A model generated the notes under the pieces. It saw only the letters and a program-made list of their open reading frames with translations. It was not told where the DNA came from and did no database searches. This document shows, one piece after another, positions 2,758 to 43,145 of a stretch of DNA of 64,000 bases (positions within the stretch are counted from its first letter, which is position 1; each line of letters starts with the position of its first letter). Position numbers and translations under genes: made by a program. Source of the DNA: a virus; the IMG/VR virus record IMGVR_UViG_3300008265_000001. One strand, given 5' to 3'.

Positions 2758-2978
2758 CAGATTGCCGCAAGTGCCTTAAGGAGTTCAGCGCGTTCAGTAG
2801 TTATATAAGTTCCACCCTCTTTAGGTAATTTAAATTCAGTATCAGCAACATCGTAATGCTTAGGTGTGACATCATAAATCCTAAATCTACCTTGCTCAGT
2901 AGTTGGGTGAATAGTGGAGATATGTTCAAGTACAATTACCGTACCGTTTCGTAATGTATATAAGTGTCTTGTGTTCAT
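2757..2978 (-). CDS. hypothetical protein
   Basis: 73-aa ORF with a 1-nt overlap with the downstream gene. Confidence 0.55.
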   Translation of the reverse strand: MNTRHLYTLRNGTVIVLEHISTIHPTTEQGRFRIYDVTPKHYDVADTEFKLPKEGGTYITTERAELLKALAAI

Positions 2979-3059
2979 GTGCTTCTCTCGTAATTAACTA
3001 TTTGATATTACTCACAACACTTATCCATGTCATCATCCCAATGGTAGAATAGTTACACC

Positions 3060-4832
3060 ATGAGCAGACCACCACGCAACGGCTATACGATAAACAGCGA
3101 TTTAGAGCTTTCGGCACTAGAGTCTTCATTATTACCTGAAAATACACCGCTAATCAACTTCGACCGCAAATGTTGGGGCGTTTACACGAACGTCGCCAGC
3201 AGCCTTAACGCATCATCTGGTTTCGAGTACATACCTCAGAACTCAATCGACGCATACACACTCACCTCAATCACCATTTCGACCGACACATACTCTCTTG
3301 ACCTCGCTGGCGCGACCCAATACATCAGTATCACCCTAGCAACCAACACGACCCTCACAATTCTCAATGCTGGCAAGTACACCAAATACTTCATCGAGTT
3401 GGTTCCAAATGGTCACATAATCAAGAATTTCACTGAACTTTTCGCGCTACCTAAGCAATACAGCCAAGCAACACTTCTCACAGCATATTTCGGCAAGCAA
3501 GTACTTGAACTACAATACATTAACAAACTTTACGCAAATATCAACTACTCCGACAACATCACTCCTGCTGGCGCAGTCGGTGCGGCAGAAAAAATAAATT
3601 GGGTAGCTCCTGCATCTGAAATTTTATATCTGGCGTTCGCATCTTCGGTCACGACGTATACAGGAAGCGGCATATCAAGCGTAAGTGCCACTGTAGGAAC
3701 TCCGAGTATCAGCAAGTCGCGCCTCTTACTTGGCTCCACTGGGCGGCTCGAAGCAACTAAGACCAGCGCACTAGATTTTGACGAAACTGATTTCACCATC
3801 TCCTTCTTTTCTGCCAAGACGAGCGTAGGCGAGTACGGTTGTATTCTAGGCAGCCACAAAGCGAGTAGCATAGGCTTTTATGTGGGTGTAGCGGCTGATA
3901 GCACCTTGTTTGCTGTCTTTGGTAGTAACGTACTTTCTTGTGCCTTACCAGACGATATCAAGGAGCATAGCGTCATCATTAATCGAATTGGGCGAGTCTA
4001 CAAAATATTTATAGATGGTATACTGAGCGCTCACCTCAAAGCAGCTAACAATTTCAACAACAACTCAACCGAGCCATTATGTATCGGCACTTTGAAGACT
4101 GCTACTGGAACACCCTCATGGACTTCACAAAGTTGGCAAGGATATCTGCGCCAGCTCACTATCAATACAGCAGCTAGCATTCCTTTTTCTGCCAATGATG
4201 TTCCACCAAAAGATACGTTAACTTCAACAACAGTCTTGCTGCTCAAATATAACGTCAATCACCTCGATTTTGCCCAGTACAGCCTCACAAGAAGTTTTAC
4301 GTCGAATGTTACGGTTCAACCACTCATTTCGTCAGGGAGGCTCAATAAGTACTCGCATATCGGCTATACAAACAGTAACTTGGAGATAACTGGCAATGTG
4401 ACGCTTGAAGCCAAGATATTCAATCCTATTGGCAACACTCGCGGAGCTATTATCGATGTTGAAGGTGGTTTTACGTGGGGCATCTATGACCTCAAGCTCA
4501 GAATCGTCTTTGGCAGCTTCACTTTGGATGGTGTGACTGATATTCCAGATAGTACAGTAGTTGATGTGTCTTTTGTAAAATCTGGTACAACTTGTTCGCT
4601 ATTCTTGAATGGAGTTCTTGAATCTACCAATACAACAAGCGAAGTGATGAATGCAAGCTCGTCAAGCTCGGAGTTCAGCATCAAACGTACTTTCACTCAA
4701 GATAGTGCGATAGCAAGTCTCAATACTTCATTGTTCCGCAGTAGGAGTTGGATTGAGATTGCACAGTTACGAGTCACCAAATCTGCGCGATACACTGGTG
4801 ACTATATTCCTGATGTTTTTTATGGTTCGTAA
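3060..4832 (+). CDS. structural/receptor-binding-type protein with two LamG (concanavalin-like) beta-sandwich-like segments
   Basis: 590 aa, Ser/Thr/Asn-rich. Segments DFDETDFTISFF...IINRIGRVYKIFIDGIL and VTLEAKIF...VSFVKSGTTCSLFLNGVL resemble LamG-fold repeats. Confidence 0.5.
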   Translation: MSRPPRNGYTINSDLELSALESSLLPENTPLINFDRKCWGVYTNVASSLNASSGFEYIPQNSIDAYTLTSITISTDTYSLDLAGATQYISITLATNTTLTILNAGKYTKYFIELVPNGHIIKNFTELFALPKQYSQATLLTAYFGKQVLELQYINKLYANINYSDNITPAGAVGAAEKINWVAPASEILYLAFASSVTTYTGSGISSVSATVGTPSISKSRLLLGSTGRLEATKTSALDFDETDFTISFFSAKTSVGEYGCILGSHKASSIGFYVGVAADSTLFAVFGSNVLSCALPDDIKEHSVIINRIGRVYKIFIDGILSAHLKAANNFNNNSTEPLCIGTLKTATGTPSWTSQSWQGYLRQLTINTAASIPFSANDVPPKDTLTSTTVLLLKYNVNHLDFAQYSLTRSFTSNVTVQPLISSGRLNKYSHIGYTNSNLEITGNVTLEAKIFNPIGNTRGAIIDVEGGFTWGIYDLKLRIVFGSFTLDGVTDIPDSTVVDVSFVKSGTTCSLFLNGVLESTNTTSEVMNASSSSSEFSIKRTFTQDSAIASLNTSLFRSRSWIEIAQLRVTKSARYTGDYIPDVFYGS

Positions 4833-6880: not shown

Positions 6881-8017
6881 TTACTTTTTGCTGTCATATT
6901 CTGGGTTCATGACCTTGACCGACAAATCGTTTGAGTAAAGTGTACGAACTACAATACCTTCAATGACTCGACCAGCCTCTTTCTCTCTTTTAAAAACATC
7001 AGAAGCAAATGAAATAAGTTCATCGTAATTTCTAGGATGTAATTGAAAGAAAAGTCTTGCTGGAGTGTATTGGAGTTTTAGCTCATGACAAATAATTTCG
7101 AGATTGTGAGGTTGTCCATAATGGATTCGAGTTGCAAAACCGCTCGCCAAATCATCAACACCGAAAAGAATTAGTCCTTGCTTCAACTGAGCATGAGGAT
7201 TCAGCTTGTTACCACTTCCTTTCAAACCCTGACCATAGATTTCACCACGAAAAGCGAGTTCGACGTTGTGCTTTTTGCAGTATTCCATACCACGTTCGTA
7301 CAGACCAGAAGACTTAGCCAACTTGACCCAACTATCAGCAGTGTCGTCAGTGATTTTCTTTTCCAGTGAACGAGAACAGATACCAGTGTACCAGTTACCT
7401 TCGACATCCTTCTTGAAATACTCGGTAAAAGAGCTTCCATCAACTTTGATAGTGTATGCAACTTCTGCCCCACTCGCAAGAACCCGATTAATGTGAGATT
7501 TGAGGTTAGCGCAGTTTTCTTCATCTGTGGAGTACAGAAAAGAAGGTAGTGTGCCTCTAGTTAGTCCTGTAGCGCCTTTCTCTGGCTCTTCATACTTAGT
7601 AATGCCCAATGCTGCTGCAAGGTCTTCAGCCGCCAACAATTCGCTTGGAAGCTCATTTGTGTTGAGTAAGATACCGACAGAGTAAATTGGGTCAGAACTG
7701 TTCTCGAAACTGAAATTGAACTTGAGCGCTCGAATGCGATTGTTTTTGCCAAGTCGAGATTTGTTAGGGTCGCCGTTAGGGGCTGTGAAACTTGCAAACA
7801 GAGGTGAGTCGGGCAAACAGTAGTCGGGCTGAATGTAGACTGCCTTGGAACCTACTTGGTAGATGCCCTTTTGCGAGACGACATTATAGCCGCACTCGTC
7901 TCCATTACTGAAGTTGAGGTTGACAACTTGAATGGACGACGCTTCTTCGCCATTTTTGTAGATAGGGATGATGCGGGAGATTGTTACGATTTCGACAGGG
8001 GCAATGGTGTTGGTCAT
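6881..8017 (-). CDS. ATP-dependent RNA ligase (nucleotidyltransferase domain preceded by a ~170-aa N-terminal domain)
   Basis: Motif I IKVDGSS, motif III FRGEIYG, motif IV LFGVDD, motif V EGIVVR...KVMNPEY. Confidence 0.7.
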   Translation of the reverse strand: MTNTIAPVEIVTISRIIPIYKNGEEASSIQVVNLNFSNGDECGYNVVSQKGIYQVGSKAVYIQPDYCLPDSPLFASFTAPNGDPNKSRLGKNNRIRALKFNFSFENSSDPIYSVGILLNTNELPSELLAAEDLAAALGITKYEEPEKGATGLTRGTLPSFLYSTDEENCANLKSHINRVLASGAEVAYTIKVDGSSFTEYFKKDVEGNWYTGICSRSLEKKITDDTADSWVKLAKSSGLYERGMEYCKKHNVELAFRGEIYGQGLKGSGNKLNPHAQLKQGLILFGVDDLASGFATRIHYGQPHNLEIICHELKLQYTPARLFFQLHPRNYDELISFASDVFKREKEAGRVIEGIVVRTLYSNDLSVKVMNPEYDSKK

Positions 8018-31718: not shown

Positions 31719-31932
31719 CTGTTTTGTTTACCCAATCTTTGTTGATTTCAAGCCATTCTTTTAATTTAGTCATACATTTTACATGAGAGTCACCACAAAA
31801 AGCAACATCAGCACATGACTCTTCTTCTGGGGGATTGGAGGCAACCCACACCATTATTTTGTAGCGACCGTTCGGGAATATTTGGCGGTAGACGTAGTGA
31901 CCTTGGAAGCGAAAACCGCAAGTTGTTCTCAT
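31711..31932 (-). CDS. hypothetical Cys-rich protein
   Basis: 73 aa, with GGAG 7 nt upstream of the ATG. Confidence 0.55.
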   Translation of the reverse strand: MRTTCGFRFQGHYVYRQIFPNGRYKIMVWVASNPPEEESCADVAFCGDSHVKCMTKLKEWLEINKDWVNKTDE

Positions 31933-32092
31933 AATTATCTCCAGATATAGAGAAAGACAGCGTTTTTAGGACTGTCTTTCGGGTGGTCTAGGCGGCTACA
32001 GGGGTAGCTTTCCTAGAAAAAGAAACGATGTTGTTGACGTTTATTTTTTCGCTATTTTAGCTGTCGCTCGTAAAGTCCCAGCGTGTTCTAGG

Positions 32093-32169
32093 CTTCCTTA
32101 CCTGTCGAAACCGTTAGCCTCACTTGAAGTGTAAGGCAAGAGAGTCGAACTCTTGTCCAGCCAAGGAAG
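32093..32169 (-). ncRNA. tRNA-like module C (7-bp closing stem, T-arm-like hairpin, 7-bp capped hairpin)
   Basis: Minus strand: CTTCCTT GG CTGGAC AAGAG-TTCGACT-CTCTT GCCTTAC-ACTTCAA-GTGAGGC TA ACGGTTTCGACAGGT AAGGAAG. A G.U pair exists only on the minus strand. Confidence 0.45.
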
Positions 32170-32212
32170 TACCTAAACTCTCAATAACACTTATATACTA
32201 ACACAACTACCA

Positions 32213-32926
32213 TTAATTACATCTACCATTAGAAATAATTTCTTCAACCTTCTTTTGTGCATCTTTCTCAAACTTAAAACTTCCAAAGTTGGCTGTTTTA
32301 CCCTTTACGGGAAACCTTACCCTCCAAACATTTCTTTTCTTGTCAAAAGAATACCCCTTGAAAGACCTCCGCCTAGCCTCTCCCATAATTACCAAGTTGT
32401 TATTATTTTTCCTAGTAAGTTTACATGGGTCAATATTTTTATGGTACTCAATAAGTTGTAATTTTGTAAGTGACTTTAGATAGTCTACTTTACATTTAGC
32501 GTCTTCCTCATCTTCAAAATACCCGAATTTCAATTGGATTCCATTAACTCTGTAGGCTACAACAAATACCTTCTTTTCTTTATTCCAAGAGTAGTAGTTT
32601 GAGTCTTTATATTTTATTCCTAATACCCAATTTGTAGTGTCTCTTGATATATTGTAAACCGAAGCCCAATCCTTAACAGCATCTAAATAAAATTGCTCTA
32701 ATGAAAACACCGTAGCTGCGTTAGCTGAAGATAATTTGTCTACTATCGAGAATACAAACGAAGATTGACCAAAACTATTCCACTCGAATTGCAGAGAACG
32801 ATTATGGTGCTTGTTTTTATTTAGTCCATTTAAATGCTCTTTAAATCTACGTTCAATATGAAGACTAGAACCGATATAATACTTGCCATTGACTACATTA
32901 GTTATGTAGTATATCCCTATTGTCAT
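32213..32926 (-). CDS. GIY-YIG homing endonuclease with two AP2-like repeats
   Basis: GIYYITN..GKYYIGSS...R..EH. Repeats VAYRVNGIQLKFGYFEDEEDA and WRVRFPVKGKTANFGSFKFEKDA. Confidence 0.8.
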   Translation of the reverse strand: MTIGIYYITNVVNGKYYIGSSLHIERRFKEHLNGLNKNKHHNRSLQFEWNSFGQSSFVFSIVDKLSSANAATVFSLEQFYLDAVKDWASVYNISRDTTNWVLGIKYKDSNYYSWNKEKKVFVVAYRVNGIQLKFGYFEDEEDAKCKVDYLKSLTKLQLIEYHKNIDPCKLTRKNNNNLVIMGEARRRSFKGYSFDKKRNVWRVRFPVKGKTANFGSFKFEKDAQKKVEEIISNGRCN

Positions 32927-33474: not shown

Positions 33475-34098
33475 CTAGCGGTTATTGGGTGTGCCAACGT
33501 TAATAGAGCCAACAGAGCCAGCCTTAGCCACTTCCGCAGTCAAGTTACGTTGAGCTTCGATTTCTCTGAACAACTTGGCGATTTCATTACTGAGCGCGCC
33601 GTTACGTTCGGTGAGAGATTCGATTTGTGCAAGTTGCTTGGCTGTAGACGTTTCAAACTGGCTTTGAAGTAGTGCTTTCTCGGAGGCAAAATCGCGAGTC
33701 AAACGGCTATTTTCGATTGTAACTGCCTTTTTGACTTCAGCATCACGCTCTTGCTTGACGGCAACAAGTTCGGTCTGCAATGCTTTGTAAGCTGCCGATT
33801 CAATTGCTTCCTTGCCAACAGACTTCAAGTACTCGTTGACGGTCACATCTTTCTTTTCTGCCAGCTTCAGATTGAAATCAACTTCAGACTGACGGTATTT
33901 GGTCTGATATACTTCGGTCAAGCCTTCAATTTCAGCTCTCTTGTTAGCGATGTCGCGAGTTAGATTCTCTGCGGTTTCGGTGAGACTATCAACTGACTTG
34001 AATGCTTCTTGAATATTTGCTGTTGCTTTGACGAGTGCTGCTGCTGCGGAGGAAATTACTACGTCGGTGTTATCGGACTTGGTTTTAGCTGTTGCCAT
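33475..34098 (-). CDS. coiled-coil protein, apparently monocistronic
   Basis: 207 aa, heptad-rich and Ala/Glu/Lys-rich. It has its own class-1 motif upstream and a terminator downstream. Confidence 0.7.
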   Translation of the reverse strand: MATAKTKSDNTDVVISSAAAALVKATANIQEAFKSVDSLTETAENLTRDIANKRAEIEGLTEVYQTKYRQSEVDFNLKLAEKKDVTVNEYLKSVGKEAIESAAYKALQTELVAVKQERDAEVKKAVTIENSRLTRDFASEKALLQSQFETSTAKQLAQIESLTERNGALSNEIAKLFREIEAQRNLTAEVAKAGSVGSINVGTPNNR

Positions 34099-34151
34099 GT
34101 GATTAGTTGTTTTGTGTTTGTTTTACAAGTGTAGAGGGTTGTGGTGATGAT

Positions 34152-34163
34152 TGTATCTATCTT
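34152..34163 (-). promoter_or_regulatory. class-1 promoter-like motif (minus: AAGATAGATACA)
   Basis: Ends 53 nt upstream of the ATG at 34098. The leader is CA-rich. Confidence 0.45.
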
Positions 34164-34290
34164 AAGGTACATATAGTGAACCCCCGCAAATATCCGATGC
34201 GAGGGTTCTTTTTAGTTTGTACGACTAAAACATATAGGTGTACAGTACTTATATTTTACTTCCTGATTTTGCCTTGTTAATATCCTGTGG

Positions 34291-34391
34291 TCAAGCTTTA
34301 GACTTATATTAGCCGTATTACCATTATACTGATTCTGCCATGATAAGGCAGAAATGAGAATTGAACTCACATCGCTAATTATTAAGCTTGA
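34291..34391 (-). ncRNA. tRNA-like module A (inverted arm order; Y-RNA-like mimic or permuted tRNA)
   Basis: Minus strand: TCAAGCTT AATA ATTAG CGAT GTGAG-TTCAATT-CTCAT TTCTGCC-TTATCAT-GGCAGAA TCA GTAT-AATGGTA-ATAC GG CTAAT ATAAGTCTA AAGCTTGA. Confidence 0.6.
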
Positions 34392-34463
34392 AACGTCGAT
34401 ACAAAAGGGAAGGTTTTAAAATGAACTTGGAGCAATAACTTCAATTTCACTTTCAGATTGAGC

Positions 34464-34556
34464 CACTTCTCTAGACCCCAGATGTTTACCAGTTACATCA
34501 CCCTCCGATAGTCGGAGAAGTTCGGCTCGAACGAACAAGACTGCGGTTTAGAAGTG
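34464..34556 (-). ncRNA. tRNA-like module B (inverted arm order)
   Basis: Minus strand: CACTTCT AAA CCGCA GTCTT GTTCG-TTCGAGC-CGAAC TTCTCCG-ACTAT-CGGAGGG TG ATGT-AACTGGTAA-ACAT C TGGGG TCTAG AGAAGTG. Confidence 0.6.
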
Positions 34557-34612
34557 TTGTATAAGCTTTAACTTACGCTCTTTAATTAATATACTCGACC
34601 AACTTACTACCT

Positions 34613-34635
34613 CGCATCTACCTAAAGACAGATAT
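34613..34635 (-). promoter_or_regulatory. class-1-variant motif heading the ORF-free RNA locus (minus: ATATCTGTCTTTAGGTAGATGCG)
   Basis: Matches 37273-37295 at 20 of 23 positions. It ends 56 nt upstream of module B. Confidence 0.45.
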
Positions 34636-34660
34636 AAAAAAGCGCTCCCGAAGGAACGCT
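34635..34660 (-). terminator. intrinsic terminator
   Basis: Minus strand: AGCGTTCC-TTCG-GGAGCGCT followed by TTTTTT, directly after the stop at 34672. The stem has a G.U pair only on the minus strand. Confidence 0.8.
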
Positions 34661-34671
34661 CTCTCTCTCTC

Positions 34672-35436
34672 TTATTGCAATGGTTGAGTCAGATAGTTAG
34701 TTATATCTTTTCCAATCTTGAATTGAATCACCTCAATGGCATTTGCACCTTCCCTTGCCACTACAACAGCCTCTAGAAGCTTCTGAGCGCGACTGACGAG
34801 TGCTTGCTTGGTTGTCTGATAAATTGCACCACTGTAGCTGATTTGCTCCCACACACCTTCGTTAATGTCTTGACTGTACTCTTTAACTTGAGCAGGGTGC
34901 TTGTCGGTCAGCGTACCTTCAATGACTTTCCAATCGGTGATTTTCTTGGTCTTGTTGGTACGGCGAACTTCGGATTCATACAAACCAGTGTTGGGGTCAA
35001 CACTCCACTTTTCTGCGCTGTCAAGGACAGGTAATGAATCGAAAAATGTAACGATGTCAGTTAACTGCTTTTCGAGAAACAACAAGCTTGAGACAGGTAC
35101 ATTCTCGGCGATTGTAGCTCCGTTAACCACAATGTTGCCAACTGCGGCTTGATTGGTTTTGTCGAGTGTTGTGATTGTGTCGAACAACTCGGTTAATAAC
35201 GAAGTGAATGCTGCAACTTGGTCTTTGACATTAGTTTGAGTCAACTTCGATTCAGGAGGATACACATACCCATCTTCAGCATTGGGGCGATAAGTTTTGC
35301 TCAAACCACCAAACAAATCTCGCTTTTGAATTGTCTTGTAGATTTCAGTCTTTGCCTTACTGACGCGAGATTTAACGCCTTCGGTGATGGCAAGCAATTG
35401 GTGTAGAAGAAGTCCAGATGCAGTTGATTTAGCCAT
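34672..35436 (-). CDS. hypothetical protein, apparently monocistronic and highly expressed
   Basis: 254-aa ORF bracketed by a class-1 motif (35493-35504) and a strong terminator. Confidence 0.75.
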   Translation of the reverse strand: MAKSTASGLLLHQLLAITEGVKSRVSKAKTEIYKTIQKRDLFGGLSKTYRPNAEDGYVYPPESKLTQTNVKDQVAAFTSLLTELFDTITTLDKTNQAAVGNIVVNGATIAENVPVSSLLFLEKQLTDIVTFFDSLPVLDSAEKWSVDPNTGLYESEVRRTNKTKKITDWKVIEGTLTDKHPAQVKEYSQDINEGVWEQISYSGAIYQTTKQALVSRAQKLLEAVVVAREGANAIEVIQFKIGKDITNYLTQPLQ

Positions 35437-35492: not shown

Positions 35493-35504
35493 TGTATCTA
35501 TCTA
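35493..35504 (-). promoter_or_regulatory. class-1 promoter-like motif (minus: TAGATAGATACA)
   Basis: Ends 56 nt upstream of the ATG at 35436. Confidence 0.45.
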
Positions 35505-35680
35505 AAGTTAGGTATAGACAATTGCGCCAGTATTTAGGTCGATGATGCGGCGCTTAATACGAGGCTCAAAGTAGCACATAACTTCAAAAAGTCTGGTTAG
35601 TCTAGCTAGACTTTCCTCTCCACGATGCCACATTAAAAGCCAACGATTATGTTTGGCAGAAAAGAATTGTATTTGATACA

Positions 35681-42383: not shown

Positions 42384-43145
42384 CTAGATTTCCCATAAAG
42401 TAGTTGTATCAAACTGTTCGTTACTGTCGTTGTAACCTCTAGGATTACTAATAACTCGCGTATCACCTAGCTCGTAGTTCACAGACTCATGTAGATGACC
42501 ATGAAACCAATATTTTGCACCAGAGTATGCAACAAAACCATCGAGATTGCTTGCATACGCTGCGCTAACAGGGTCAGAAAAGAACTGTGGGCTTAGTGAC
42601 TTGGGTGAGGGGGCATGATGAGTGCAAATTACCTTTTTAGAGTCGGGTGTACGGTCAAATAAAGCCTGTCGTAGCCAATTAACTGAACGATGATGCCATT
42701 TTTCCGTGTCTGAAGGTGTTATTTTTCGATATCGGTCATCATTTCCGAGTCGAATTTGCTTGTAGTCGTTCAATTTATCGTAACAATCAAGTTTCCCTAT
42801 AGTTGAATCACCAAAAAGCGCGAAGTCTGTCCATAAGGTTGCCCCAAAAAAGGTGACATCATCAATAACCACACTCTCATTCTCAAGAACGTGAAAGTTT
42901 GGGCTATATTTTTCCGCCTCGGCGCGAATTTTGTCTGGTGTGTCGGGGTATTTGCCACCATAGTACTCATGATTGCCAAGAATATAGATAATATGCTTCG
43001 ACTCGATGGTATTAGCTGCCCACTGAACTCCTTTAATACTTGTGTGGATGTCGCCAAGCAGTATAGTGACATCGGCTTTGTCGGTGCTGGGGATGTGTAG
43101 GGCTGAAAATTCGAGATGAAGGTCTGAAAGAGCTAGGATTTTCAT
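42384..43145 (-). CDS. calcineurin-like metallophosphoesterase
   Basis: LSDLHLE, GDIH, GNHEYY, HHAP and GHLH motifs in canonical order. Confidence 0.85.
   Translation of the reverse strand: MKILALSDLHLEFSALHIPSTDKADVTILLGDIHTSIKGVQWAANTIESKHIIYILGNHEYYGGKYPDTPDKIRAEAEKYSPNFHVLENESVVIDDVTFFGATLWTDFALFGDSTIGKLDCYDKLNDYKQIRLGNDDRYRKITPSDTEKWHHRSVNWLRQALFDRTPDSKKVICTHHAPSPKSLSPQFFSDPVSAAYASNLDGFVAYSGAKYWFHGHLHESVNYELGDTRVISNPRGYNDSNEQFDTTTLWEI

What the first reader, a model, noticed from the sequence alone, without database searches (positions are those of the whole stretch)
34291..34556. Two tRNA-shaped modules with inverted arm order (T-arm, loop-capped acceptor stem, D-arm) in an ORF-free locus: tRNA mimics of the Y-RNA-like type, or permuted tRNA genes
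The 540 nt between the terminator at 34635-34660 and the promoter-like motif at 34152-34163 contain no credible ORF. On the minus strand they contain two elements with near-canonical tRNA parts.

Module B (34556->34464), listed in 5'->3' order:
- T-arm GTTCG-TTCGAGC-CGAAC, with loop TTCRANY.
- 7-bp stem TTCTCCG/CGGAGGG capped by ACTAT.
- TG, i.e. U8 and N9.
- D-arm ATGT-AACTGGTAA-ACAT, with A14, G18G19 and A21 in place.
- 5-nt strands CCGCA/TGGGG that pair 4 of 5, as an anticodon stem would.
- A 7-bp outer helix CACTTCT/AGAAGTG.

Module A (34391->34291) repeats the plan:
- T-arm GTGAG-TTCAATT-CTCAT.
- Capped acceptor TTCTGCC-TTATCAT-GGCAGAA.
- D-arm GTAT-AATGGTA-ATAC.
- A perfect 5-bp ATTAG/CTAAT stem and an 8-bp outer helix TCAAGCTT/AAGCTTGA.

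Positions 15 and 48 can form an A-U Levitt pair in both modules. G.U pairs occur only when the sequence is read on the minus strand.

The arm order (39-43 strand, variable region, T, acceptor 3', cap, acceptor 5', D, 27-31 strand) is what results when a tRNA fold is entered through the anticodon stem. This is the topology reported for bacterial and phage YrlA-type Y-RNA-like RNAs. It is also the order of a circularly permuted tRNA gene broken in the anticodon loop.

The locus starts 56 nt downstream of a conserved promoter-like motif. That is the same spacing the motif keeps from start codons of protein genes.
Basis: partly seen in the sequence, partly recalled or inferred. Interest (0 to 1): 0.88.

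Follow-up and report, generated by a model that had tools for sequence, protein, structure and literature searches.

The report
Tandem tRNA-mimic RNA linked to DUF7873
The two tRNA-shaped modules are real and belong to one roughly 400-nt phage RNA that almost always sits just downstream of an uncharacterised protein gene (DUF7873) in at least 552 bacterial species and 144 viral contigs, which suggests an undescribed RNA-protein pair resembling bacterial Y RNAs.

Summary
On the minus strand, 34556->34464 and 34391->34291 each fold as a tRNA entered through the anticodon stem, in the order T arm, 7-bp loop-capped acceptor stem, D arm.

Eight cyanophage homologues give 98% pairing, and 23 of 36 pairs change on both sides. 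All 15 modules, once un-permuted, are called tRNAs by ARAGORN. Across 81 modules the universal tRNA positions are kept: U8, A14, the A15-U48 pair (replaced by G15-C48 in two), G53-C61, and the UUCRA T-loop.

The architecture matches YrlA-type Y RNAs. My model finds a mycobacteriophage YrlA, and Rfam's YrlA model gives weak hits in register. Family membership fails, however. Rfam scores stay far below threshold, and no Ro60/TROVE gene lies in the window, in the whole Pam2 genome, or within 5 kb of 89 related loci.

Instead the RNA follows a DUF7873 gene on the same strand in 76 of 80 bacterial loci and 72 of 76 viral loci. DUF7873 has no structural match in the PDB or BFVD libraries and appears in no paper in the library searched.

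The nucleotide after the first module's acceptor strand is A in 37 of 37 cases. CCA follows that position in 13 of 80 modules, which suggests the caps are removed by tRNA-processing enzymes. The function is inferred, not shown.

The parts
34672..35436 (-). DUF7873 protein gene (254 aa). It is the conserved upstream neighbour and candidate protein partner of the RNA.
   Evidence: Pfam PF25283, E 3.4e-87. An R2 model hit follows the gene on the same strand in 76 of 80 bacterial loci and 72 of 76 viral loci. AlphaFold2 model has pLDDT 87 and no Foldseek match with E <= 0.001.
34635..34660 (-). Hairpin followed by a T-run that ends the DUF7873 transcript (GAGCGTTCCTTCGGGAGCGCTTTTTT).
   Evidence: Read from the sequence. 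Present in all 8 homologues. Not called by the terminator scan.
34616..34627 (-). Promoter-like motif CTTTAGGTAGAT belonging to the RNA gene.
   Evidence: One of three exact matches to CTTWAGRTAGAT in the window. All three are intergenic and on the minus strand. Conserved in all 8 homologues.
34588..34593 (-). -10-like hexamer TATATT (TATACT in some relatives). It places the inferred transcription start near 34582.
   Evidence: Alignment A1. This is an inference, and the sigma-70 scan did not call it.
34557..34581 (-). Conserved 5' leader AGAGCGUAAGUUAAAGCUUAUACAA, containing the small hairpin UAAG...CUUA.
   Evidence: RNAalifold pairs at columns 59-64/69-74. The motif GAGYRYAAG is present in 20 of 37 diverse loci, against a shuffled mean of 0.09.
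T arm 34520-34536. Acceptor 3' strand 34513-34519. Cap ACUAU 34508-34512, with the A at 34512 in the discriminator position. Acceptor 5' strand 34501-34507. D arm 34482-34498. Anticodon-like stem 34542-34546 with 34476-34480. Outer helix 34550-34556 with 34464-34470.
   Evidence: R2 hit at 34463-34558, 41 bits, E 1e-7. Called a tRNA by ARAGORN after un-permuting. The discriminator position is A in 37 of 37 first modules.
34392..34463 (-). Linker. It holds a conserved hairpin core UUGAAGUUAUUGCUCCAAGUUCAU (34421-34444), the 5' strand of a long-range stem (UUUUGU, 34401-34406), and the AUCGAC motif (34395-34400) at the position where YrlA carries GNCGAA.
   Evidence: Linker consensus is CUCCAG..UUCAG..GAUCGCCG.AUCGA. 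AUCGA is present in 19 of 37 loci, against a shuffled mean of 1.7.
Outer helix 34384-34391 with 34291-34298. Stem 34375-34379 with 34308-34312. T arm 34354-34370. Acceptor 3' strand 34347-34353. Cap UUAUCAU 34340-34346. Acceptor 5' strand 34333-34339. D arm 34315-34329.
   Evidence: R1 scores 106 bits and R2 95.7 bits, but both models were trained on this sequence. Called a tRNA by ARAGORN after un-permuting.
34267..34290 (-). Conserved tail CCACAGGAUAUUAAC, plus the 3' strand (GCAAAA, 34267-34272) of the long-range stem that encloses module 2.
   Evidence: Invariant in the 8 close homologues. Compensatory changes at columns 241/385 and 246/380. UUAAM is present in 30 of 37 diverse loci, against a shuffled mean of 4.3.
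34181..34205 (-). 3' terminal hairpin CCCUCGCA-loop-UGCGGGGG. This is the probable end of the RNA and is followed by the next gene's promoter-like motif at 34155-34166.
   Evidence: Covarying pairs at columns 447-477. There is no clean U-tract, and the scan did not call it.

Best explanation
The locus encodes one stable non-coding RNA of about 400 nt (roughly 34582->34180, minus strand). It has its own promoter-like motif and its own 3' hairpin.

The RNA contains two L-shaped tRNA mimics. Each is entered through an anticodon-like stem. Each has a canonical 5-bp T arm and a canonical D arm, and a 7-bp acceptor stem closed by a variable cap. The two modules are joined by a conserved leader, linker and tail.

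It belongs to a large, previously uncatalogued RNA family that follows the DUF7873 gene in bacteria and phages. The module architecture is that of YrlA-type Y RNAs, but the RNA is not Ro60-linked.

Inferred mechanism, none of it shown experimentally:
1. The host tRNA-maturation machinery treats each module as a pre-tRNA. RNase P cuts at the cap/acceptor junction, before C34507 in module 1 and before G34339 in module 2.
2. The 3' side is trimmed to the discriminator (A34512 and U34346), and CCA is added or retained.
3. This leaves a nicked, three-piece, base-paired RNA carrying two tRNA-like ends.
4. The RNA then acts together with the DUF7873 protein as a ribonucleoprotein. The tRNA mimics serve as handles for a tRNA-binding partner, as Y RNA does with Ro60 or tmRNA with SmpB.
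For: Shown:
- Structure and strand: covariation.
- tRNA-likeness: 15 of 15 un-permuted modules are called tRNAs. Across 81 modules: U8 81/81, A14 79/81, A15-U48 76/81 plus G15-C48 in 2, G53-C61 80/81, U54 80/81, U55 73/81, C56 80/81, R57 81/81, A58 79/81.
- YrlA-like architecture.
- Link to DUF7873: all 8 close phages, plus L024, L026 and L027 at 76, 60 and 45% protein identity. 76 of 80 bacterial loci, with 141 hits all on the gene's strand, from at least 552 species spanning Planctomycetota, Chloroflexota, Actinomycetota, Myxococcota, Acidobacteriota and Armatimonadota. 72 of 76 viral loci, down to 32% protein identity.
- Not in Rfam.

Supporting the processing step:
- The acceptor is 7 bp in every module listed except one off-locus hit (L048:655-739, 6 bp), which was left out of the counts. 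Seven base pairs is the length that Chen et al. 2014 (PMC4201824) link to RNase P cleavage and in vivo CCA addition in M. smegmatis YrlA.
- The discriminator position is A in 37 of 37 first modules.
- CCA sits exactly after the discriminator in 13 of 80 modules, against 0-2 at other offsets.
- +1 is G in 66 of 80 modules, and -1 is U in 31 of 43 second modules.
- In L026 and L027 the RNA lies inside tRNA gene clusters.
- The caps vary freely in length (5-131 nt) and sequence.
Against: - There are no expression, processing or binding data.
- Gene adjacency does not prove physical partnership.
- Three Herpetosiphon loci, one Spirulina MAG and two viral loci have DUF7873 without a detectable RNA.
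- DUF7873 has no recognisable RNA-binding or catalytic fold.
- Most caps lack an encoded CCA.
- S. Typhimurium YrlA, the best-studied relative, is not cleaved by RNase P.
- In the window a terminator and a separate promoter motif lie between the gene and the RNA. In PA-SR01 about 500 nt are inserted there. The two are therefore separate transcription units in these phages.
Confidence: 0.6

Rival explanations
1. It is a genuine Y RNA (YrlA orthologue). It would bind a host-encoded Ro60/Rsr and tether it to PNPase or another effector, and the phage would supply only the RNA.
For: The module architecture is the same as Rfam's YrlA model. The models cross-detect each other. An AUCGA(A/C/G) motif sits where YrlA has GNCGAAN0-1G, and exact GUCGAAG occurs in Pam2, PA-SR01 and L008. 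Tandem Y-like RNAs also occur upstream of Ro60 in phage Cali.
Against: No Ro60 was found in the window or in the whole Pam2 genome. None of the 357 Ro60-carrying phage records is listed as a Pseudanabaena phage; two single-record genera were not named. No Ro60 lies within 5 kb of 89 DUF7873 loci, whereas YrlA lies within 4 kb of rsr. DUF7873 is absent from the two Ro60 loci examined. The motif is not GNCGAA in the window (AUCGACG) or in most family members. Rfam scores are 13-29 bits against a threshold of 69.
Confidence: 0.12
2. The modules are circularly permuted or split tRNA genes that mature into decoding tRNAs, for example a two-piece tRNA-Leu.
For: The 3' half precedes the 5' half. In PA-SR01, L003, L004, L008 and L018, module 1 is a complete permuted class II tRNA-Leu-like sequence. 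It has D arm GCGGAACUGGUAGACGC, an anticodon-like hairpin whose loop contains UAA, and an opened variable arm. The discriminator is A, and CCA is sometimes encoded.
Against: Both window modules and all second modules lack an anticodon loop. The class-2 hairpin loop is 8-9 nt. The hairpin is deleted in Pam2 and replaced in the window and L005. No mechanism is evident for joining the ends. Pam2 and PA-SR01 carry ordinary tRNA genes elsewhere.
Confidence: 0.04
3. It is a decoy or sponge that titrates a tRNA-targeting host factor, such as a defence nuclease, a toxin or a tRNA-modifying enzyme, independently of DUF7873.
For: Only the elbow and the acceptor/T minihelix are under strong constraint. 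The gene sits in an early/replication region of a lytic phage. The phage also carries an RNA ligase and a phosphoesterase.
Against: The same RNA is conserved in free-living bacteria of many phyla, where an anti-defence decoy makes little sense. Most known tRNA-directed defence nucleases cut anticodon loops (from my own knowledge), and these are absent here. The strict linkage to DUF7873 would be left unexplained.
Confidence: 0.1
4. It is a cis-acting 3' element of the DUF7873 mRNA: a tRNA-like processing or stability signal, not a trans-acting RNA.
For: It is always immediately downstream on the same strand, often only 60-120 nt after the stop codon in bacteria. tRNA-like 3'-end processing signals are known, for example MALAT1/mascRNA (from my own knowledge).
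Against: In the phages a strong terminator and a separate promoter motif intervene, and PA-SR01 has about 500 nt inserted there. About 330-400 nt with two modules and conserved leader, linker and tail is far more than a processing signal needs. In L181 the hits lie upstream of the gene.
Confidence: 0.08

Closest known systems
YrlA-type bacterial and phage Y RNAs (Rfam RF02553; Chen et al. 2014, PMC4201824)
   Same: - Same order of elements: basal stems, 4-nt variable region, T arm, loop-capped acceptor-like stem, two nucleotides, D arm, return strands.
- The Levitt pair and T-loop/D-loop identities are conserved.
- Both are often found as two tandem RNAs.
- The 7-bp-stem version in M. smegmatis is cut by RNase P and receives CCA.
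- The covariance models detect each other.
   Different: - No Ro60 neighbour; the neighbour is DUF7873 instead.
- Both tRNA-like modules lie in one transcript, with a conserved leader, linker and tail.
- The GNCGAA motif is only approximated (AUCGAN).
- Rfam scores are 13-29 bits against a threshold of 69.
Two-piece (permuted) tmRNA with SmpB
   Same: - Same permuted order: T arm, acceptor 3' strand, removable loop, acceptor 5' strand. R2 scores the window's own permuted tmRNA at 36.6 bits.
- A small dedicated protein gene sits directly upstream on the same strand, as smpB does before ssrA in E. coli (from my own knowledge).
   Different: - These modules have full D arms and anticodon-like stems.
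- No conserved tag reading frame: the linker ORF is not conserved, and substitutions among relatives are non-synonymous.
- No G3:U70 pair.
- DUF7873 has no detectable relation to SmpB.
Circularly permuted tRNA genes (Cyanidioschyzon merolae type) and split tRNAs
   Same: The 3' half is encoded upstream of the 5' half, and the acceptor strands are joined by a short intervening loop.
   Different: Those genes regenerate an intact anticodon loop and function in decoding (from my own knowledge). Here the anticodon loop is missing or degenerate and is replaced by an extended helix.
Other tRNA-like processing substrates (mascRNA, viral 3' tRNA-like structures)
   Same: [quoted passage not shown]
   Different: Those elements are single, terminal, and not permuted. 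None is linked to a dedicated protein family.

Membership tests
YrlA / bacterial Y RNA (RF02553) | tRNA-like domain in the order stem, V, T arm, capped acceptor-like stem, D arm, stem | tested here: met
   for the structure. One search shows the Rfam consensus. R1 finds the Cali YrlA at L019:3695-3768 (25.1 bits, E 0.004).
YrlA / bacterial Y RNA (RF02553) | Score at or above the Rfam gathering threshold (69 bits) | tested here: not met
   No hit in the window at E <= 10. 13.8 and 13.1 bits in Pam2 and L004. 29 bits in L030 and L031. The control, phage Cali, itself reaches only 36 bits.
YrlA / bacterial Y RNA (RF02553) | Encoded within about 4 kb of a Ro60/Rsr (TROVE) gene on the same strand | tested here: not met
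   Pfam on 20 window ORFs found no TROVE domain. tblastn with three Ro60 proteins against the window, the whole Pam2 genome and 89 DUF7873 loci found nothing, while the Cali control gave 8e-95.
YrlA / bacterial Y RNA (RF02553) | GNCGAAN0-1G motif 5' of the tRNA-like domain | tested here: inconclusive
   GUCGAAG in Pam2, PA-SR01 and L008. AUCGAAG in L004 and L018. AUCGACG in the window. GUCAAAG in L003 and L005. The family-wide core is AUCGA, present in 19 of 37 loci.
YrlA / bacterial Y RNA (RF02553) | Bound by Rsr; carries pseudouridine-55 and dihydrouridine | not testable with these tools
   Needs immunoprecipitation and modification mapping. Whether Pseudanabaena encodes Rsr could not be checked.
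Canonical tRNA gene | Contiguous cloverleaf detected by ARAGORN or the Rfam tRNA model | tested here: not met
Canonical tRNA gene | Universal tertiary and conserved nucleotides and stem lengths (7/4/5/5) | tested here: met
Canonical tRNA gene | 7-nt anticodon loop | tested here: not met
   In both window modules an internal loop and an outer helix take its place. The class-2 relatives have an 8-9-nt loop.
Two-piece tmRNA | Conserved tag reading frame, and a match to the tmRNA_permuted model | tested here: not met
   Rfam matches only 31988-32191. The linker ORF is not conserved.
DUF7873-associated tandem tRNA-like RNA (family defined here) | Two tRNA-like modules, with leader GAGYRYAAG, linker and UUAAM tail, downstream of DUF7873 on the same strand | tested here: met

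The most novel reading that the evidence does not exclude
DUF7873 and this RNA form a widespread, undescribed ribonucleoprotein, comparable in standing to Ro60-Y RNA or SmpB-tmRNA. After RNase P and 3' processing, the RNA would present two CCA-ended tRNA-like acceptor arms. The first has an invariant A73 and a tRNA-Leu/class II-like D arm. At least one arm would be aminoacylated or would engage the translation or tRNA-quality-control machinery. Phages would have captured the pair to manipulate that process during infection.
Probability: 0.25. Interest if true: 0.95.

Novelty: new variant of a known kind. Interest (0 to 1): 0.85.

Why it matters
Y-RNA-like tRNA mimics have so far been tied to Ro60. 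Here the same RNA design is coupled to a different protein of unknown fold. It is conserved from Streptomyces, Nocardia, Sorangium and Planctomycetes to cyanophages and jumbo-phage contigs, yet it is absent from Rfam and from the literature searched.

This gives a function-less protein family (DUF7873) a concrete, testable partner. It suggests that tRNA mimicry with a removable acceptor cap is a more general way of building bacterial RNPs than was known.

The cyanophage relatives also capture stages between a complete permuted tRNA-Leu-like sequence and an anticodon-less mimic. That bears on how such RNAs evolve from tRNAs.

For annotation, the region is unannotated in Pam2 and PA-SR01 apart from a small hypothetical-protein call in PA-SR01.

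Tried and rejected
- Rfam at gathering and at permissive thresholds found no family above threshold for this locus or for 12 bacterial loci.
- Exact-pattern scans of IMG/VR with two conserved stretches found nothing. A shorter core found 3 contigs. The single metagenome scan found 1.
- I looked for antisense targets of the leader, linker and tail within the window. Nothing of 12 nt or more turned up apart from the locus itself, and the output of that script was poorly designed.
- A tag-like ORF in the linker (AQSESEIEVIAPSSF* in the window) was rejected. Its stop codon is lost in PA-SR01, L004 and others, substitutions are non-synonymous, and no reading frame is conserved in bacteria.
- The idea that module 1's 5' acceptor strand pairs with module 2's 3' strand, making one giant tRNA/tmRNA-like molecule, holds only in Pam2, where the two stems are identical.
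- DUF7873 function could not be assigned. PHROGs, NCBIfam, PADLOC, PDB sequence and profile searches, and Foldseek against PDB and BFVD all gave nothing credible. The weak Cas7-like Foldseek rows have TM scores around 0.15 and are not meaningful.
A narrower alignment worked.
- The terminator scan found no sites in 33900-34900, not even the obvious hairpin at 34635-34660. The transcript ends therefore rest on reading the sequence and on covariation.
- Whether Pseudanabaena encodes Ro60 could not be determined with these tools. The supplementary tables of Chen et al. 2014 are not held.
Full report
**Source and setting.** The window comes from a cyanophage related to Pseudanabaena phages Pam2 and PA-SR01, at about 72% nucleotide identity over this locus and about 82% over the surrounding 10 kb. 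The finding lies between a 254-aa gene (34672-35436, minus strand) and a 207-aa gene (33475-34098, minus strand). ARAGORN and Rfam report only one RNA gene in the window, a permuted tmRNA at 31988-32191.

Single-sequence folding is not decisive (z = -1.96 and -3.49), so I collected homologues:
- Pam2 (L001) and PA-SR01 (L002).
- Four IMG/VR contigs (L003, L004, L005, L008).
- One metagenome contig (L018).

RNAalifold on these eight sequences recovers both T arms, both 7-bp capped acceptor stems, both D arms and the stems below them without being told them. It also finds a 5' hairpin, a central hairpin, a long-range stem enclosing module A, and a 3' hairpin. 41 pairs show compensatory change.

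For the 36 tRNA-like pairs, 98.3% of cells are paired. 23 pairs change on both sides, against 6-8 when the partner column is slid, and 0 of 500 shuffles reach the observed values. G.U pairs fit only the minus strand. The small ORFs are broken by indels in the relatives.

**How tRNA-like are the modules?** I rotated each module back to the normal order, closing it with an artificial anticodon loop or, for one class, an artificial variable-arm loop. All 15 constructs are called tRNAs by ARAGORN at default thresholds.

On 81 modules from phages and bacteria, aligned by a covariance model, the universal positions hold:

| Position | Count |
|---|---|
| U8 | 81/81 |
| A14 | 79/81 |
| A15-U48 | 76/81, with G15-C48 in two |
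| G53-C61 | 80/81 |
| U54 | 80/81 |
| U55 | 73/81 |
| C56 | 80/81 |
| R57 | 81/81 |
| A58 | 79/81 |
| GG in the D loop | 65/81 |

Neither window module has an anticodon loop. An internal loop and a 7-8-bp outer helix take its place.

**Variation among the close phages.** Module B comes in three forms:
- PA-SR01, L003, L004, L008 and L018 carry what is effectively a complete class II tRNA-Leu-like sequence, permuted in its variable arm. It has D arm GCGGAACUGGUAGACGC, an anticodon-like hairpin UUYGG-AUUAAAAAC-CCRAA with a compensatory change, and the helix CACAAC/GUUGUG as the opened variable arm.
- Pam2 has lost the hairpin altogether.

The anticodon region is therefore dispensable. The elbow and the acceptor/T minihelix are what selection keeps. 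This argues against decoding tRNAs. The likeness of the D arm to tRNA-Leu rests on my own recollection of tRNA-Leu sequences, not on a tool result.

**Comparison with YrlA.** Chen et al. 2014 (PMC4201824) define YrlA by three features:
- A tRNA-like T / acceptor-like / D domain.
- A GNCGAAN0-1G motif near the 5' end.
- Location within 4 kb of a Ro60/Rsr gene on the same strand.

They also showed that M. smegmatis YrlA, which has a 7-bp acceptor-like stem, is cut by RNase P in vitro and is cleaved and CCA-tailed in vivo.

Rfam holds this family as RF02553. As a positive control it finds the YrlA of mycobacteriophage Cali just upstream of that phage's Ro gene (36 bits, E 1e-4), and its consensus has exactly the arm order seen here. 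For my locus:
- Rfam gives no hit in the window.
- It gives 13-14 bits in two relatives, in the correct register.
- My model R1, built only from the eight copies of module A, finds the Cali YrlA (25.1 bits, E 0.004). It also finds several copies of module B (25-35 bits).
- R1 gives two instructive weak hits: a junction between two tandem tRNAs in Pam2, and the permuted tmRNA.

The architecture is YrlA-like, but membership fails:
- Pfam on 20 window ORFs finds no TROVE domain.
It finds 357 phage records, none listed as a Pseudanabaena phage; two single-record genera were not named.
- tblastn with human, Cali and Phosso Ro60 finds nothing in the window or in the complete Pam2 genome, while the control scores 8e-95.
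- The GNCGAA motif is exact in three relatives but reads AUCGACG in the window.

**The turn: DUF7873.** The upstream gene is Pfam DUF7873 (PF25283, E 3e-87). A protein search gave 290 homologues. In every context fetched, a gene-free gap of 230-750 nt follows the gene.
- R1 finds two tandem modules in that gap in phage-like contigs at 76, 60 and 45% protein identity (L024, L026, L027).
- It also finds modules in bacterial contigs (L030, L031, L032), where Rfam's YrlA model reaches 29 bits. The Spirulina MAG locus (L029), with the shortest gap, gave no hit.

I rebuilt the model from 22 modules (R2). On these, all 28 pairs change on both sides, and the T and acceptor stems are 100% paired.

They include Planctomycetota, Ktedonobacterales and other Chloroflexota, Nocardia, Streptomyces, Kitasatospora, Sorangium, Blastocatellia and Armatimonadota.
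- In the best 80 loci, R2 gives 141 hits, all on the strand of DUF7873, in 76 loci.
- There are usually two tandem hits starting 60-300 nt after the stop codon.
- The exceptions are three Herpetosiphon loci and one 1.1-kb contig.

In IMG/VR, 144 contigs encode DUF7873. Of 76 loci not closely related to the window, 72 have hits. There are 138 hits in total, all on the gene's strand, with protein identity down to 32% and GC content from 25 to 68%.

No Ro60 lies within 5 kb of any of 89 such loci. DUF7873 is absent from the two Ro60 loci examined. Rfam finds nothing above threshold in 12 bacterial loci. The terms DUF7873 and PF25283 occur in no paper of the library, and later papers that mention YrlA do not describe this association.

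**Family features.** The first module has:
- A long D loop of 8-11 nt containing GGYAG.
- T loop UUCGAAU.
- A in the discriminator position in 37 of 37 cases.

The second module has:
- A 7-nt D loop.
- Discriminator U (25), G (16) or A (2).
- U at -1 in 31 of 43 cases.
- G at +1 in 34 of 43 cases.

CCA follows the discriminator directly in 6 of 37 first modules and 7 of 43 second modules, against 0-2 at neighbouring offsets. Caps range from 5 to 131 nt.

Outside the modules, three blocks are conserved far above shuffled expectation:
- A leader, GAG.GCAAGCU.
- A linker, CUCCAG..UUCAG..GAUCGCCG.AUCGA.
- A tail, UUAAACG.

This is therefore one RNA of roughly 330-420 nt, not two independent small RNAs.

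**The protein.** An AlphaFold2 model of DUF7873 built from 42 sequences is confident (pLDDT 87, pTM 0.73). It has no Foldseek match with E <= 0.001 in PDB or BFVD. There are no hits in PDB by sequence or profile, nor in PADLOC, NCBIfam or PHROGs. Its role is unknown.

**Mechanism: what is shown and what is inferred.**

Shown:
- A conserved, structured, minus-strand RNA carrying two tRNA mimics.
- YrlA-like architecture.
- Tight, strand-specific linkage to DUF7873 across phyla and phages.
- No Ro60 nearby.

Inferred:
- Each module is processed like a pre-tRNA, with RNase P cutting at the cap/acceptor junction and the 3' side trimmed to N73 with CCA.
- The basis for this is the uniform 7-bp acceptor stems, the invariant A73, the position-specific CCA, the G+1 / U-1 preferences, the freely varying caps, the placement inside tRNA clusters in L026 and L027, and the M. 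smegmatis precedent.
- The resulting nicked RNA then works with DUF7873 as an RNP.

Whether it is aminoacylated, which tRNA-binding factor it engages, and why a phage carries it all remain open.

**Verdict.** The locus belongs to a large, apparently undescribed RNA family partnered with DUF7873.

Noticed in passing
window 31897-32223 (-): A permuted (two-piece) tmRNA gene (Rfam tmRNA_permuted, 62.6 bits), with ARAGORN tag peptide VNNIVSFSRKATPVAA. A 2-mismatch variant of the promoter-like motif lies at 32221-32232. A GIY-YIG homing-endonuclease gene lies immediately upstream at 32213-32926. R2 scores its tRNA-like domain at 36.6 bits because it has the same permuted topology.
   Followed up: partly
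window 34155-34166, 34616-34627, 35496-35507 (-): The 12-mer CTTWAGRTAGAT matches exactly three times, all intergenic and on the minus strand. One-mismatch copies lie at 823, 11974 and 29938. The motif sits about 57-60 nt before start codons, so it is probably a phage promoter or regulator site. The motif before the RNA and the one before the next gene are partly complementary to each other.
   Followed up: partly
window 6881-8017 (-) and 42384-43145 (-): An RNA ligase (PF09414; closest NCBIfam is the Deinococcus DRB0094-type ligase, below its cut-off) and a metallophosphoesterase. Together they could form an RNA-repair pair. Pam2 annotates an RNA ligase and a phosphoesterase, and also an Appr-1-p processing (macro-domain) protein.
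   Followed up: no
L002 (PA-SR01) about 2850-3340: About 500 nt, containing small ORFs, are inserted between the DUF7873 terminator and the RNA's promoter motif. This shows that the gene and the RNA are separable transcription units that nevertheless stay adjacent.
   Followed up: no
L001 (Pam2) 3650-3690 and 3800-3850: Both Pam2 modules carry the identical acceptor stem GGGCGAG/CUCGCCC, which suggests gene conversion between the modules. A region about 400 nt downstream (about 4380-4650) looks tmRNA-like by eye and is unannotated.
   Followed up: no
alignment A1 (8 phage loci), columns 20-100: The evolution is mosaic. Two unrelated leader-proximal spacers and three forms of module 1 are combined differently with the module 2 variants among the phages. 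For example, L005 has the window's module 1 but L003's module 2.
   Followed up: no
L030 1689-1975: Four copies of the Acido-Lenti-1 RNA motif (RF01687, 38-55 bits, on both strands) lie between the DUF7873 gene and the tRNA-like modules in a Gemmataceae MAG.
   Followed up: no
L027 4137-4296 and L026 5016-5214: In two divergent phage-like contigs the DUF7873-RNA pair is embedded in, or directly followed by, clusters of ordinary tRNA genes.
   Followed up: no
L128 355-759, L123 859-958, L151 1028-1125, L181 2135-2395, L131 5159-5258: Some viral loci have additional R2 hits upstream of DUF7873 or further downstream. Copy number and arrangement of the modules are therefore not always two-downstream.
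   Followed up: no
L014 about 1700-2950: In a related phage contig that lacks both DUF7873 and the RNA at this position, the 207-aa gene is instead preceded by a large ORF. By eye it has TerD-like sequence features; this was not tested.
   Followed up: no
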